Virus record (IMG/VR): IMGVR_UViG_3300032116_015796 | Location: 16,257 to 80,256 of that record | DNA from: a virus | Length of the DNA stretch: 64,000 bases | Strand: one strand, 5' to 3' | Part shown: piece by piece, positions 55,481-59,543 of the stretch | Numbering within the stretch: position 1 is the stretch's first letter | How the letters are laid out: each line of letters opens with the position of its first letter | Made by a program: the position numbers and the translations under genes | The notes under the pieces: generated by a model | Databases searched by the model: none | The model's input: the letters and a program-made list of their open reading frames with translations, nothing else | What the model was told of the DNA's origin: nothing

Positions 55481-55871
55481 GGGGGTAACTCTGGAATTGA
55501 CTGGCATAGATAGTCATTCGGGGCACGTCAGGGACGAACTAACCCTGTCAAAATGGTTCAAAAACGATAAACGGCAACGTTATCAACAAACTTTCTGCGG
55601 TAGGTCTTATCCGTACTGAGGAAAGCGTAGCAGTAGCCTAATTGAATTAGGTTACTAAAGGGGTCGGCAGACATATAACCTTGCAACAGAAGTCGTAGTT
55701 GTGGTGGATTACTATTGAACCCTAAATCGAATGGTAACCATTGTTTGTTGATTTACGATGGTGAAGAACAAATCAACTATTTTTGGAACATTAGAAAATG
55801 TTAACCTAAGCGTGTAGTCCTTAATGGGTAATGTGAACAGGACTTGGGTTCGAGTCCCAATACCTCCACCA
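55481..55871 (+). ncRNA. ssrA: tmRNA; tag (A)GNVINKLSAVGLIRTEESVAVA
   Basis: GGGGGTA/TACCTCC-ACCA acceptor stem with G3:U70, GGAATTGAC D-loop, T-arm GGGTTCGAGTCCC, tag ORF at 55573-55641. Confidence 0.93.
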
Positions 55872-57052: not shown

Positions 57053-57640
57053 TTAGTTATGACTTATAGGTCCAACAATTGGTGGTGTAGGGTTGCTTGT
57101 TCCGTTGTAAATATTAAATGGTGTCGCCAAATCACACGAAGTACTATTCCAACTTCCCCATAACCCATCTGAACCAGGTGTAACTTGTATTAATAAATTT
57201 TGTGGTGTACATAAAGTGGATACTGTTACTTGAAAACAAAAAGTCCATACACATGAACCATTGTCCCCAAAGTCATTCGCAGGATTACCATCAATAGTTA
57301 AATCAAAGAAATATCCAGGACCTATAGGACCCACAGGTGTAGGACATGATGTCATCCAAATCCATTGTCCTCCTGAAACCGCTCCTCCACAATTTGCGGG
57401 TGGAGATACGGGTGTTAATCCTGTCCATCCAGGACCTAAAGTTAAATCAAAACCCTCAATCCAATTGGACCCCGTTTGAGTATACCCATTCATGGTATAA
57501 CATACGTTAACTACAGTACCAGGAGTATATCCACCAACAGGTGGTGTTGGGGTTAGTGTAAAAGTTTGAGCCCCATTACACTGACTAAAAACAGGTAATG
57601 ATAAAAGAAAAAATAATATAGTGAAAATCGTTACCTTCAT
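57053..57640 (-). CDS. Secreted Cys/Gly/Pro-rich beta protein ending in PISHN
   Basis: Signal peptide ending VFS-QC; same C-terminal motif as its neighbour. Confidence 0.75.
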   Translation of the reverse strand: MKVTIFTILFFLLSLPVFSQCNGAQTFTLTPTPPVGGYTPGTVVNVCYTMNGYTQTGSNWIEGFDLTLGPGWTGLTPVSPPANCGGAVSGGQWIWMTSCPTPVGPIGPGYFFDLTIDGNPANDFGDNGSCVWTFCFQVTVSTLCTPQNLLIQVTPGSDGLWGSWNSTSCDLATPFNIYNGTSNPTPPIVGPISHN

Positions 57641-57685
57641 TACTATAAATACGAATATTTCACTATAAAGTTGTCTGTTATAAAC

Positions 57686-57728
57686 AAAAAAAGGGAGAAT
57701 ATTGGTGGTTAGTCAATTTCTCCCTTTT
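57686..57728 (-). terminator. Terminator closing the RNA locus
   Basis: AAAAGGGAGAA...TTCTCCCTTTT stem; the A run at 57686-92 is the minus-strand U tract. Confidence 0.8.
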
Positions 57729-57729
57729 A

Positions 57730-58095
57730 ACCGTGGAACTTTCTCTGTCGGTAAGTCCAACCCGATACTTTTGTTAGTGAGACAAAAGTAACCATTGTCG
57801 TATGGTCGAGTTTGTACAATTTAAACGTCTATGTTTTTTATCATTTTTTCATATTTAAACACCTACTAAAATTTTTGTGGTTATCACAGAAATCCACATC
57901 TTAAAAAAAGGTGTCGTACAGTTTTCTGTCTATTGCCAGACAAAGTCATGTCGAGGACTCAAGCGGCGCTCTTATTTCCTTTACTTTTTTCCTTAAGGGT
58001 AAAAATGTGTGACAAAGAGTCTGAACCATCACGAATAAAACCCTGATTGTTCTGTTTTGTTCTCAGTTTAAACTCATGTTAGGTGTGATACAATT
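57730..58095 (-). ncRNA. Unidentified structured ncRNA candidate (~320-370 nt)
   Basis: No ORF; nested stems found by eye (CTTTGTC/GACAGAG, AGTCC/GGACT, ACACCT/AGGTGT, TGTGG/CCACA, TGTCTG-GCAA-TAGACA, three-way junction); boundaries approximate. Confidence 0.5.
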
Positions 58096-58122
58096 CTAAA
58101 GAACACCTATCGGAGTCACTTG

Positions 58123-58194
58123 TTGCGGGAGAAGGATTCGAACCTTCGACCTCAAGGTTATGAGCCTTGCGAGCTTCCACTGCTCTATCCCACT
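58123..58194 (-). tRNA. tRNA-Met(CAT), initiator (fMet)-like; CCA not encoded
   Basis: 72-nt cloverleaf AGTGGGA-TA-GAGC..GCTC-G-CAAGG-CTCATAA-CCTTG..GAAGG-TTCGAAT-CCTTC-TCCCGCA-A; 1:72 mismatch and A11:U24. Confidence 0.92.
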
Positions 58195-58202
58195 ATATGG
58201 CT

Positions 58203-59061
58203 AAGGCTGAGATTATACCTTTTATTTGAGAACCTTTCGAGTCATTATTGCTTCTACTCTTATCCACTTCCTTTTGAGAAGTATTTCTCAGTGACGGTCT
58301 TTTAGGTTTACCACTCCTTGAGGTCTTGGTTACTCTCTTATTACTCAACTCTCTTCGAGGATGCCTCCCCAATTAATCCTTGCGGGATTAGAGGTCTTTG
58401 GTAAAACTACACTCGGACTTGGGGTCTTTGTGTGCAATGAACGGCTCATTACTATGTAGTCACCTTTCACCAAAACCTGGTAGACACTTTTCCTTAGATT
58501 TCATAATTAATAGGACTTAATTTTTAGTCATAAGTTTTGTGTCGTGGATGTATCGAAGTAGTGGTCTACCCTAAGCTCAGTCATCTTTTGAACAACTGAA
58601 TACTAAACTACTCCGTGAGATGTCCCCACCTCCATATTTCAAGTTTACTTCGTACCAAGACCTTGGTGGGTCTTTGATAAGGATAGTAGCGACACCACTC
58701 GTTCTCTATCTTACCTTTCGGTTTTAAGTCCACTTTCATATTGGAACCCGCAATTATGTAATTGGATAACTACACCTCTCACTTGATTCCTATGGGTTAT
58801 TCTTATTGGTGTTCCCACCTCAACCAAACAATCCACATTGCTTGGTCACCCAACCACTTTCCCTAAAGCGTCGCCCTCAGTACTGAAGGTCGGGTGATAT
58901 CCCACTTGTATACTCGAGTTCGGTTTCCCAAACCGCAGAATCATCAACACGGGTGATTCCACTTTATCCTACTTTCGTAGTTTATTTAACGACCATATAC
59001 GGCCGATTATCTTTTACAGGTTATCATCTCCCCGAAGGGGTACTTTCACCTGATGGATAAT
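58203..59061 (-). ncRNA. Large structured ncRNA, GOLLD-like (~860 nt)
   Basis: No credible ORF; GC-richer than flanks; many GNRA/UUCG hairpins on the minus strand; abuts a tRNA; 3' hairpin AAGGTATAATCTCAGCCTT resembles my recollection of GOLLD 3' ends; family needs a covariance-model search. Confidence 0.7.
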
Positions 59062-59067
59062 TCAATC

Positions 59068-59137
59068 TTTCAAAGAACTCTATCGGACGTTTCCGATTTG
59101 TTTTACAAAGTTAAGAACAATTTTTTTAATTTCCAAA
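59068..59137 (-). promoter_or_regulatory. Promoter/hairpin/boxA cassette 1
   Basis: TTTG-N20-TAACTTTG-TAAAACA, ATCGGA-AACG-TCCGAT hairpin, GTTCTTTGAAA. Confidence 0.8.
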
Positions 59138-59158
59138 TTTTTCTCAAACTTTTTTTTC

Positions 59159-59275
59159 GGTTATTATAACTGTTGCGGTAACATGTCTCATTTACACTTT
59201 AAATGCGAAGGATTCCCGTAGTCACTTTCCTCACATACAACAGTAGCCCTACGGACCTAGACTGTTTCTATAACC
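59159..59275 (-). ncRNA. Small pseudoknotted ncRNA candidate (~117 nt)
   Basis: GGTTAT/ATAACC terminal stem, AACA-GTCT/AGAC-A-TGTT, CCGTAG/CTACGG, CATTTA/TAAATG and pseudoknot ACTGTTGT/GCAACAGT; has its own promoter cassette. Confidence 0.55.
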
Positions 59276-59281
59276 AATTTT

Positions 59282-59349
59282 TTTAAAGAACTCATCGGAC
59301 ATTTCCGATTTGTTTTACAAAGTTAAGAAGAACTTTTTAATTTTCCAAA
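59282..59349 (-). promoter_or_regulatory. Promoter/hairpin/boxA cassette 2 (direct repeat of cassette 1)
   Basis: TTTG-N20-TAACTTTG-TAAAACA, ATCGGA-AATG-TCCGAT, GTTCTTTAAA. Confidence 0.8.
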
Positions 59350-59366
59350 TTTTTCTTCAACTTTTT

Positions 59367-59510
59367 TTAAGATACTACGTATACATCGTCAGTACCGTGA
59401 AATTTAGCTCTTGCCATTGCAAGAACGGCACTACAAGTGTAATACTTCACACCATCATTCCCATAGTAGTAGAACAAAGGTTCGTCAATTACTTGTGTTT
59501 CGTTACTCAT
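59367..59510 (-). CDS. 47-aa small protein MSNETQVIDEPLFYYYGNDGVKYYTCSAVLAMARAKFHGTDDVYVVS
   Basis: ATG-TAA ORF below the track cut-off, directly downstream of cassette 3. Confidence 0.65.
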   Translation of the reverse strand: MSNETQVIDEPLFYYYGNDGVKYYTCSAVLAMARAKFHGTDDVYVVS

Positions 59511-59543
59511 GTTTGAGTTTTTAAACAGTTAATACTCGGTTAA

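What the first reader, a model, noticed from the sequence alone, without database searches (positions are those of the whole stretch)
59159..59275. Compact pseudoknotted small RNA with its own promoter
Seen: four nested stems plus an 8-bp pseudoknot, in which the loop segment ACUGUUGU (59237-44) pairs with the 3' segment GCAACAGU (59169-76). The RNA exactly fills the gap between two promoter cassettes and has no ORF. I cannot match it to hammerhead, HDV/theta, twister, pistol or common riboswitch cores. Inference: a ribozyme, protein decoy or antitoxin-like RNA.
Basis: partly seen in the sequence, partly recalled or inferred. Interest (0 to 1): 0.7.

Follow-up and report, generated by a model that had tools for sequence, protein, structure and literature searches.

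The report
New kissing-loop RNA in phages
The 117-base stretch is a real gene for a small, tightly folded non-coding RNA of a family that is in no RNA catalogue; large lake phages carry it beside their tRNA, tmRNA and giant GOLLD RNA genes, and so do 29 cultured Flavobacterium phages, so its unknown job can now be tested in the laboratory.

Summary
Confirmed as a real structured RNA gene on the minus strand, 59275..59159. Single-sequence folding gives no support (z -0.36) and Rfam 15 has no match. Comparison with more than 75 distinct homologues fixes the fold.

- Well over 100 viral and metagenome contigs, mostly from lakes, carry it. So do 29 cultured Flavobacterium psychrophilum phages (FpV4 group) and a 735-kb phage.
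- P1 joins the two ends. A short hairpin, P1b, follows.
- P3 is almost invariant in sequence. P5 is a hairpin, and some members have an optional insert, P4.
- A 6-7-bp kissing pseudoknot joins the P1b loop (UCCGUAG) to the P3 loop (CUACGGG).
- P1, P1b, P2, P5 and the pseudoknot show many compensatory changes. G-U pairs fix the strand.

The gene has a Bacteroidota sigma-A promoter, a leader hairpin and a boxA-like word. It has no ORF and no terminator of its own. Downstream come GOLLD, tRNA-Met and a further RNA. In other phages it lies flush between tRNAs or before a tmRNA. Metatranscriptome contigs cover it at modest depth.

The function is unknown. My best guess is a trans-acting folded RNA that offers its invariant core to a conserved partner. 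The ribozyme, decoy and antitoxin readings are untested. This scan had flagged the same family before on other DNA.

The parts
59346..59349 (-). -33 element TTTG of the RNA's own promoter
   Evidence: Read. It lies 20 nt upstream of the -7 box. The same layout is repeated at 59134-59137 for GOLLD.
59318..59325 (-). -7 box TAACTTTG (Bacteroidota sigma-A type); predicted start near 59313
   Evidence: TAnnTTTG at -12 to -5 is the sigma-A consensus in Flavobacterium psychrophilum (PMC9723704). The promoter is conserved in homologous loci. The start site is inferred, not measured.
59294..59309 (-). Leader hairpin ATCGGA-AATG-TCCGAT (boxB-like position)
   Evidence: Related loci have hairpins of other sequences at the same place.
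59282..59291 (-). boxA-like word GTTCTTTAAA
   Evidence: In this window the same word follows TAnnTTTG promoters before tmRNA (55467, + strand), the 47-aa ORF (59553), this RNA (59291) and GOLLD (59078); GTTCTTTAG stands at 58104-58096, just after tRNA-Met, at the head of the next RNA. The likeness to rrn boxA rests on my own knowledge and was not tested.
59159..59275 (-). The RNA itself (117 nt, short form without P4)
   Evidence: CM R1 scores 130 bits, E 5e-43; single copy in the window and in the 80-kb record.
59268..59275 (-). P1, 5' strand (pairs with 59159-59166)
   Evidence: All 8 pairs show changes on both sides.
59245..59263 (-). P1b hairpin: stem 59263-59260 with 59248-59245, 11-nt loop 59259-59249
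   Evidence: 3 of 4 pairs show changes on both sides; 97.8% paired on a MAFFT alignment.
59249..59255 (-). Pseudoknot 5' strand UCCGUAG, in the P1b loop
   Evidence: Pairs with 59215-59221. 6 of 7 pairs change on both sides and 96.3% are paired. At least 8 different complementary word pairs occur.
59237..59244 (-).
   Evidence: Pairs with 59169-59176. 6 of 8 pairs change on both sides.
59229..59236 (-). P3, 5' strand AUGUGAGG (pairs with 59203-59210, CUUCGCAU)
   Evidence: 100% paired; the sequence is almost invariant, with two conserved G-U pairs. Compensatory changes occur only in distant members: FpV4 has ACAUGAGG:CUUCAUGU and LR756501 has GUGUGAGG:CUUCGCAC.
59211..59228 (-). L3, the terminal loop of P3: AAAGUGA, then pseudoknot 3' strand CUACGGG (59221-59215), then AAUC. 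This is the site of the optional P4 insert in other members.
59177..59197 (-). P5 hairpin with loop UG.AA.AU
   Evidence: All 6 pairs change on both sides. FpV4 has an insert of about 80 nt in this loop.
59169..59176 (-).
59159..59166 (-). P1, 3' strand
59063..59156 (-). Second promoter, hairpin and boxA cassette, which drives GOLLD
   Evidence: Direct repeat of 59275-59368. TTTG 59137-59134, TAACTTTG 59113-59106, hairpin 59097-59082, GTTCTTTGAA 59078-59069.
58204..59060 (-). GOLLD RNA, the next gene in the same transcription unit
   Evidence: Rfam RF02032 scores 312.9 bits on 58615-58204. Metatranscriptome contigs cover 58208-59015 at high depth. The 5' boundary is inferred.

Best explanation
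This is the gene for a discrete, stable, folded non-coding RNA of a family that no catalogue holds. SHOWN: the fold. P1 closes the 5' and 3' ends. A 4-bp hairpin, P1b, runs straight into an 8-bp P2. P2 continues into an 8-bp P3 of nearly invariant sequence, and a hairpin P5 branches at that point. The last 6-7 bases of the 11-nt P1b loop pair with the middle of the P3 terminal loop, which makes a kissing pseudoknot. The lengths of P2, P3, the P1b loop and the 5' half of L3 are fixed across the family. P1, an insert in L3 (P4) and the P5 loop vary. G-U pairs show that the minus strand is the functional one. SHOWN BY SEQUENCE: a host-type (Bacteroidota sigma-A) promoter, a leader hairpin and a boxA-like word precede it. 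No terminator follows, and the next units are GOLLD, tRNA-Met and a further RNA, ending at a hairpin plus T-run near 57700. INFERRED: the unit is transcribed like an rRNA operon, with antitermination and read-through. The roughly 117-nt RNA is trimmed out. In other phages it lies flush between tRNAs, so RNase P and the tRNA 3' processing enzymes would set its ends. It then acts in trans as a folded RNA. Most likely mechanism, about one chance in two among the functional readings: the pseudoknot locks the two junctions so that the invariant core is presented as a binding surface for one conserved partner, a protein or RNA of the tRNA and translation sphere. That core comprises the P3 helix with its G-U pairs, AAAGUGA, the UUAAA junction and the P5 loop. 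The RNA would work as a scaffold or decoy, not by antisense pairing. The variable sequence of the kissing strands argues that they pair with each other and not with an outside target.
For: Homologues: an exact 20-mer occurs in 22 viral contigs. Wider patterns give 34 viral contigs, 65 metagenome stretches and 1 genuine genome-contig hit, and 20 divergent members come from a pattern that avoids the pseudoknot strands. CM R1 gives 57-173 bits. Covariation: the whole structure is 94.9% paired, against 36-55% for slid controls, and no shuffle of 500 reaches it. P1 has 8/8, P2 6/8 and P5 6/6 pairs with changes on both sides. On an alignment not fitted to the structure, the pseudoknot has 6/7 and P1b 3/4. 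P3 covaries in FpV4 and LR756501. There is no ORF, no Rfam family and no tRNA. The gene is single copy. Context: GOLLD lies 600-1270 nt downstream on the same strand in most loci with enough DNA. Elsewhere the RNA sits directly before a permuted tmRNA, or within 0-6 nt of tRNAs in large arrays. FpV4 has a tmRNA 400 nt downstream. Promoter consensus: PMC9723704. The boxA-like word stands before or at the head of all the RNA genes of the window. Expression: a 485-nt contig of metatranscriptome X1 spans 58980-59464 with one mismatch at depth 34.7, and a contig of X5 from a relative matches exactly 59160-59283. Not found in 151 sampled Flavobacteriales genomes, and only one genuine hit among the contigs of 185,579 species, so it is a phage RNA.
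Against: Nothing here shows a discrete transcript of about 117 nt, its ends or its abundance. The RNA evidence is assembled contigs, at a depth only about 3 times that of neighbouring mRNA regions and 10-100 times below GOLLD. No partner is known: no protein gene co-occurs with it beyond clade synteny, and no consistent pairing site on GOLLD was found. An invariant helix with conserved G-U pairs and conserved junction purines would fit a catalytic or ligand-binding core equally well. Whether the kiss forms within one molecule or between molecules cannot be told from sequence.
Confidence: 0.5

Rival explanations
1. Self-assembling RNA, or partner of GOLLD. The two complementary loops pair between molecules, head to tail as in phi29 pRNA rings. 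This would build oligomers, or dock the small RNA on or in the GOLLD cage that is encoded next to it.
For: The two loops are complementary to each other, covary, and are not self-complementary. P1b, P2 and P3 could stack into one rod with the loops at opposite ends (inference). GOLLD follows on the same strand in most loci and is co-transcribed without a promoter between them in L017 and L019. GOLLD forms a 14-mer cage that might enclose other molecules (PMC12286853). Other phage RNAs under 200 nt form cages, trimers and filaments (bioRxiv 10.64898/2026.07.01.735769).
Against: The family also occurs without GOLLD, in tRNA arrays, before tmRNA and in FpV4. No conserved pairing site on GOLLD was found in 7 phage pairs. 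P2 and P3 are both fixed at 8 bp, which fits P3 folding back along P2 so that L3 meets the P1b loop within one molecule (inference).
Confidence: 0.13
2. Ribozyme. The invariant core is a catalytic centre, for self-cleavage that releases the RNA from the polycistronic RNA-island transcript or for another reaction.
For: It is compact and pseudoknotted. Peripheral inserts vary while junction purines are invariant, and an invariant helix carries conserved G-U pairs. It lies in multi-RNA transcripts that must be cut. RNA ligase genes are nearby.
Against: No match to hammerhead, HDV-like, twister, twister-sister, pistol, hatchet, hairpin or any other Rfam family, even at E up to 10. There is one copy per genome. 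In arrays its ends coincide with tRNA ends, which tRNA-processing enzymes already explain. No cleavage data exist.
Confidence: 0.1
3. Cis-acting element of the RNA operon. It would be a leader domain that helps transcription, folding or processing of the stable RNA that follows (GOLLD, tmRNA or tRNA), and not an RNA with a job of its own.
For: It usually stands upstream of another stable RNA on the same strand. In L017 and L019 it lies between the promoter and the boxA that precedes GOLLD. It has no terminator of its own. A metatranscriptome contig bridges it to GOLLD.
Against: In this window a complete promoter, hairpin and boxA cassette separates it from GOLLD. The downstream partner differs from lineage to lineage while the RNA core stays invariant. 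In large arrays it lies mid-array between unrelated tRNAs.
Confidence: 0.12
4. Ligand-sensing aptamer, a stand-alone riboswitch-like RNA.
For: It has two junctions locked by a loop-loop contact and invariant unpaired purines, as in several aptamers (inference).
Against: There is no expression platform, no regulated ORF downstream and no Rfam riboswitch match. It has its own promoter, and in arrays it has tRNA neighbours.
Confidence: 0.05
5. Not an RNA at all: a DNA-level signal, or chance complementarity between two repeats.
For: The single-sequence fold is no better than shuffles.
Against: More than 75 distinct homologues show compensatory changes in five helices. Conserved G-U pairs would be A-C mismatches on the other strand. 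The region is present in RNA libraries.
Confidence: 0.02

Closest known systems
GOLLD (Rfam RF02032) and ROOL: orphan structured RNAs of phage tRNA islands
   Same: Phage-encoded, in the same RNA islands beside tRNA and tmRNA genes. In this window it lies in the same transcription unit, with the same promoter, hairpin and boxA-like leader. Function is unknown and the structure is supported by covariation (PMC12286853).
   Different: It is 115-230 nt rather than 600-800 nt. There is no sequence or structure match to either model. It occurs without GOLLD in many phages. One word, GAAAG(G)UGACUAC, is shared with the GOLLD 3' domain (58468-58456), but part of it belongs to the covarying pseudoknot strand, so the likeness may be chance.
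phi29 packaging RNA (pRNA, Rfam RF00044); features quoted from my own knowledge
   Same: About 120 nt. A helix joins the 5' and 3' ends, there is a three-way junction, and two loops have mutually complementary sequences that covary between phages. It is a phage-encoded single-copy gene with its own promoter.
   Different: No Rfam match. pRNA loops pair between molecules to ring the portal; here it is unknown whether pairing is within or between molecules. pRNA is known from Bacillus phi29-like podophages and lies at a genome end, whereas this RNA lies in tRNA, tmRNA and GOLLD islands of large phages. Nothing links it to packaging.
Pseudoknotted self-cleaving ribozymes (twister, HDV-like, pistol, hatchet)
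   Same: Compact size, crossing helices and a variable peripheral hairpin.
   Different: No covariance-model match. The helix order differs from HDV: here the stretch between P2/P3 and the pseudoknot 3' strand has no local P3 hairpin. One copy per genome. Cleavage untested.
Three-way-junction aptamers held by loop-loop contacts (purine riboswitch type); from my own knowledge
   Same: Side-by-side arms joined by a loop-loop interaction, with conserved junction residues.
   Different: It is not in the 5' UTR of an mRNA, has no expression platform, has a longer (6-7 bp) kiss and matches no Rfam family.
rrn operon leader (boxB hairpin, boxA; NusB-NusE antitermination; PMC10250234, PMC3177189)
   Same: This concerns the expression cassette, not the RNA. 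The order is promoter, small hairpin, then GTTCTTT(A/G)A, ahead of untranslated stable RNAs.
   Different: The word differs from the E. coli boxA by a few bases (own knowledge). The host boxA was not checked here, and binding of Nus factors is untested.

Membership tests
Any Rfam 15 family, including hammerhead, HDV-like, twister, twister-sister, pistol, hatchet, hairpin, pRNA, Y RNA, 6S, SRP, RNase P and riboswitches | Score at or above the family's gathering threshold with its covariance model | tested here: not met
   cmscan of the window at gathering thresholds finds only GOLLD, tmRNA and tRNA. With E up to 10 on 57600-59900, the only overlap is RAGATH-12 at 16.2 bits (threshold 75, E 5), which lies mostly in the leader.
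GOLLD RNA (RF02032) | Is part of the GOLLD molecule, that is, its variable 5' region | tested here: not met
   A complete promoter, hairpin and boxA cassette lies between it and GOLLD. The family occurs in phages and loci without GOLLD.
GOLLD RNA (RF02032) | Constant genomic linkage with GOLLD | tested here: inconclusive
   GOLLD lies 600-1270 nt downstream in roughly three quarters of loci with at least 1.7 kb of downstream DNA. Many of those loci are near-duplicates from one phage clade.
tRNA or tRNA-like | Cloverleaf with T and D arms | tested here: not met
   ARAGORN and Rfam tRNA find nothing at 59159-59275.
Type III antitoxin RNA (ToxI type) | Tandem repeats of a short unit next to an endoribonuclease toxin gene | tested here: not met
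   One copy, with no tandem repeat inside. The neighbours are a 47-aa ORF with no family, an M23 peptidase-like protein and GOLLD.
Riboswitch | Aptamer in the 5' UTR of a regulated gene, with an expression platform | tested here: not met
   A second promoter and a non-coding RNA follow it. No terminator or start-codon sequestering helix is present. In arrays it is flanked by tRNAs.
Self-cleaving ribozyme (any class) | Site-specific self-scission | not testable with these tools
   Only assembled contigs of RNA runs were available, and these cannot show ends.
phi29-type pRNA (working likeness) | Two covarying complementary loops on a closed three-way-junction RNA | tested here: met
phi29-type pRNA (working likeness) | Loops pair between molecules; the RNA binds the portal and is needed for packaging | not testable with these tools
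   Sequence cannot separate pairing within a molecule from pairing between molecules. No packaging genes lie nearby.
rrn-type antitermination leader (for the cassette) | Promoter, then hairpin, then boxA word ahead of an untranslated RNA | tested here: met
   The order is seen before this RNA and GOLLD. Before tmRNA and the 47-aa ORF the word follows the promoter without a clear hairpin.
rrn-type antitermination leader (for the cassette) | The word matches the host's own rrn boxA and binds NusB-NusE | not tested
I did not check it. Two papers searched for the E. coli word returned nothing.

The most novel reading that the evidence does not exclude
The RNA is a small self-assembling or GOLLD-docking module. 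Its two covarying loops would pair between molecules to build rings or filaments, or tie it to the GOLLD nanocage. That would give the first functional handle on what GOLLD-type cages do in infected cells.
Probability: 0.12. Interest if true: 0.85.

Novelty: new variant of a known kind. Interest (0 to 1): 0.6.

Why it matters
Phage tRNA islands hold several abundant, elaborately folded RNAs, such as GOLLD and ROOL, whose function has been open since 2009. This adds a small and therefore tractable member. Its fold is fully supported by covariation. Its core is invariant across very different large phages. It is often physically linked to GOLLD, and it has an identical copy in 29 cultured Flavobacterium psychrophilum phages, where it lies in an unannotated 2.3-kb gap and two records annotate a hypothetical protein over it. 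That makes knock-outs, Northern blots, pull-downs and structure work possible at once. A partner or activity found for it could also show what the neighbouring giant RNA does.

Tried and rejected
- Single-sequence folding gave z -0.36 on the minus strand and -0.62 on the plus strand: no support either way.
- Rfam at gathering and at E up to 10, and ARAGORN: nothing for the region.
- The search for related loci with the neighbouring M23-like protein found no relatives.
- The pattern CTTCGCATTTNAAGTGT brought in about 15 chance matches inside coding regions, which were discarded. L059, L111 and L113 were also chance matches.
- An alternative 5' hairpin, ACAGU:ACUGU, is 84.6% paired, fails in the L028, L067, L078 and L112 lineages, and clashes with the better-supported P1b and P2. 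Rejected.
- Base pairing of the conserved 5' region or of L3 with GOLLD: the best duplexes fall at different GOLLD positions in each of 7 phages, so there is no consistent site. A first attempt with shuffles timed out.
- Protein neighbours: only clade synteny was seen (lipoprotein, M23-like, 205-aa protein, Rnl1-like ligase, 47-56-aa ORF), and no family spans all contexts.
- Mutual-information scan of all column pairs: the top pairs are the known helices and the rest is clade signal.
- Word likenesses to RNase P CR-I (GAGGAAAG), SRP, 16S h23, the 23S L11 site and the hairpin ribozyme were considered. Each involves short words or covarying helix strands, so they were dropped as chance.
- A kink-turn at the end of P3 was considered. 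The opposite strand lacks the GA, so it was rejected.
- Cellular homologues: none in 151 sampled Flavobacteriales genomes. The one genome-contig hit (L112, a MAG labelled Deltaproteobacteria) lies beside genes with PHROG matches (a PnuC-like transporter, an NMN adenylyltransferase), so it is probably a phage contig.
- Literature: no paper describing this RNA was found.
- Metatranscriptome stretches without cover (57400-57700, 59622-59900) are not used as evidence.
- Look-ups of the E. coli boxA word in two papers returned nothing.

Full report
THE PLACE. The window is part of an 80-kb IMG/VR virus record judged 27% complete, with about 30% G+C. On the minus strand the order is as follows.
- A 47-aa ORF (59510..59367).
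- A 94-nt cassette (59368-59275).
- The candidate (59275..59159).
- A second copy of the cassette, 83% identical (59156-59063).
- GOLLD RNA: Rfam RF02032, 312.9 bits on 58615..58204, with the variable 5' half upstream of that.
- tRNA-Met (58194..58122).
- A further conserved ORF-free stretch that ends at a hairpin plus T-run (57724-57685).
A tmRNA lies at 55481-55871 on the plus strand. Each cassette holds TTTG-N20-TAACTTTG, a 6-bp hairpin and GTTCTTT(A/G)A. TAnnTTTG at -12 to -5 is the sigma-A box of Flavobacterium (PMC9723704). A protein with a type IX secretion CHU_C domain nearby also points to a Bacteroidota host.

THE OBSERVATION. Alone, the sequence folds no better than shuffled versions (z -0.36). 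It matches no Rfam family, even at E up to 10, and is not a tRNA. No ORF of 30 aa or more lies within it.

HOMOLOGUES. A 20-mer from the candidate occurs exactly in 22 viral contigs. Flanks diverge there, the core is nearly identical and the terminal stem changes in a compensatory way. Wider patterns raised this to 34 viral stretches, 65 metagenome stretches and one genuine genome-contig hit. I aligned 55 distinct full-length copies (A1), built a covariance model (R1) and re-aligned 64 hits, 56 of them distinct (A2). The first patterns contained one pseudoknot strand. I therefore searched again with GTATGYGAGGAAARTGA, which avoids both strands. That gave 20 more divergent members at 57-145 bits (A3). 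BLAST of a long-form member against deposited phage genomes found 29 Flavobacterium psychrophilum phages (FpV4, Fpv1/2/3/20/21 and the FPSV series) and the 735-kb uncultured phage LR756501. The gene is single copy in the window and in its record.

THE FOLD. On A2 the structure is 94.9% paired. Slid controls give 36-55% and none of 500 shuffles reaches the observed values.
- P1 (59275-59268 with 59166-59159): 8 of 8 pairs change on both sides.
- P5 (59197-59177): 6 of 6 pairs.
- P3 (59236-59229 with 59210-59203, AUGUGAGG:CUUCGCAU): 100% paired but almost invariant, with two conserved G-U pairs. True compensatory changes appear only in distant members: FpV4 ACAUGAGG:CUUCAUGU and LR756501 GUGUGAGG:CUUCGCAC.
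- Pseudoknot: invariant in the first set, so unproven there. In the divergent set UCCGUAG:CUACGGG is replaced by CCAAUC:GGUUGG, CAGUC:GGCUG, CAGUC:GACUG, CAAUC:GAUUG, CUAGUC:GGCUAG, GCCAUC:GGUGGC, GCAGUC:GGCUGC, CUGUAG:CUACAG, and in FpV4 UCUGUGG:CCACAGG.
- On a plain MAFFT alignment of 46 distinct 53-nt segments (A4), 6 of 7 pseudoknot pairs change on both sides and 96.3% are paired.
It has 3 of 4 pairs changed on both sides and 97.8% paired. Its 11-nt loop carries the pseudoknot 5' strand.
The pseudoknot is therefore a kiss between the P1b loop and the terminal loop of P3. A competing 5' hairpin that I first considered is weaker and was dropped.

Many members carry a hairpin insert of about 32 nt (P4) after the pseudoknot 3' strand. 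L011 has a different insert there, and FpV4 has about 80 extra bases in the P5 loop. The window copy is the minimal form. The lengths of P2 (8 bp), P3 (8 bp), the P1b loop (11 nt) and AAAGUGA (7 nt) never change. For the window sequence the nested consensus is worth -14.4 kcal/mol and the kiss about -8.7, which together come close to the MFE of -24.7. G-U pairs kept in P1, P2 and P3 would be A-C on the other strand, so the minus strand is the RNA.

CONTEXT.
- In the window's clade the RNA has its own promoter and GOLLD follows 600-1270 nt downstream on the same strand. This holds for about three quarters of loci with enough DNA.
- In L017 and L019 no promoter separates it from GOLLD.
- In other lineages it lies directly before a permuted tmRNA (L053, L055, L065, L092).
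- It can lie before a roughly 100-nt unknown RNA and tRNA-Met (the L002 group), or 3-5 nt before an odd 92-nt tRNA-Pro (the L028 group).
- It can lie in the middle of large tRNA arrays of 140-305-kb contigs, within 0-6 nt of the neighbouring tRNAs.
- In FpV4 it lies in an unannotated 2.3-kb gap with a tmRNA 400 nt downstream.
- No protein family accompanies it across these contexts.
- It was not found in 151 sampled Flavobacteriales genomes.

EXPRESSION. Four metatranscriptomes from different studies hold exact contigs of the GOLLD region at word depths of hundreds to thousands. One (X1) has a 485-nt contig spanning 58980-59464 with one mismatch at depth 34.7. One (X5) has a contig from a relative whose match ends exactly at 59160 and 59283. 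Contigs cannot show ends, strand or level, so this is only modest support for transcription. It is compatible with read-through from one unit into the next.

MECHANISM. The evidence shows a phage gene for a compact kissing-loop RNA, expressed from a host-type promoter with the same leader as the phage's other stable RNAs. Three steps are inferred. The RNA is trimmed out, in arrays by the tRNA-processing enzymes. It then acts in trans. The kissing strands change freely as long as they match each other. P3, AAAGUGA, the junction and the P5 loop do not change across very different phages. I therefore read the kiss as an internal clamp and the invariant core as the working surface, most likely a binding site for one conserved partner of the tRNA and translation sphere. 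The rivals are intermolecular assembly or docking to GOLLD, a ribozyme, a cis-acting leader for the downstream RNA, and a ligand sensor. None can be excluded with these tools.

COMPARISON AND NOVELTY. The RNA is not a member of any Rfam family and not part of GOLLD. In kind it is closest to the orphan structured RNAs of phage tRNA islands (GOLLD, ROOL). In architecture it recalls phi29 pRNA, with closed ends, a three-way junction and two covarying complementary loops, but there is no evidence of common descent or of a packaging role. I found no paper that describes it. Earlier notes of this same scan had flagged the family on other DNA (e1-5391262, e1-5861956) and the boxA leaders (e1-5392087, e1-6103419). 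My tests agree with those notes. They add covariation proof of the pseudoknot and of P1b on an unfitted alignment, covariation in P3, the tRNA-flush contexts, the metatranscriptome contigs and the cultured FpV4-group carriers.

Noticed in passing
window 57685-58104 (minus strand): An ORF-free stretch directly after tRNA-Met begins with a boxA-like GTTCTTTAG (58104-58096) and ends at a hairpin GGGAGAA..TTCTCCC plus T7 (57724-57685). Exact metatranscriptome contigs cover 57744-58106 in three runs. It is 66-70% identical over about 440 nt in related loci and has no Rfam match. It is probably another uncatalogued RNA of the same operon.
   Followed up: partly
L004, L005, L012, L019 (between promoters near the RNA): Conserved small hairpins of 30-50 nt, such as GAGAAUGACAACGAUUCAGAUACAACUCUC, sit right after TAnnTTTG promoters. 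In some loci they take the place of the leader hairpin; in others they stand alone before the next promoter. Their meaning is unknown.
   Followed up: no
L002, L046, L098, L109 and others, just 3' of the RNA; also 5' of it in L003: A conserved unknown RNA-like segment of about 100 nt (GAGGUCUAGUGUGAACCUGAC...GUCUGUAGCAC) lies between this RNA and tRNA-Met in phages that lack GOLLD at that place. It has no Rfam match.
   Followed up: no
L028:5881-5972, L048, L114, L116-L118, L128, L148: An unusually long (92-nt) tRNA-Pro(UGG) follows the RNA by 3-5 nt. ARAGORN also calls tRNAs with four-base anticodons (aagg, ggaa) in L104, L114, L117 and L118. These may be frameshift-reading or aberrant tRNAs.
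   Followed up: no
window 61932-63005 (minus strand): There is a T4 Rnl1-type RNA ligase (PF09511, E 1e-19) 2.7 kb upstream of the RNA island. A second ligase-like ORF occurs in related loci. So RNA-repair genes flank the island.
   Followed up: partly
window 58456-58468 versus 59218-59229: GOLLD's conserved junction word GAAAGGUGACUAC resembles GGAAAGUGACUAC in L3 of the small RNA. Part of the latter is the covarying pseudoknot strand, so the likeness may be chance.
   Followed up: partly
MK764441.1 20493-20730 and MK764449.1 86523-86760: Two deposited Flavobacterium phage records annotate a hypothetical protein across the RNA gene. The other annotated records leave it blank, and many records carry no annotation at all.
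   Followed up: no
window 59367-59510 (minus strand): A 47-aa ORF with its own promoter and boxA-like word matches no Pfam family. It is conserved (about 56 aa) just upstream of the RNA in 16 related loci.
   Followed up: partly
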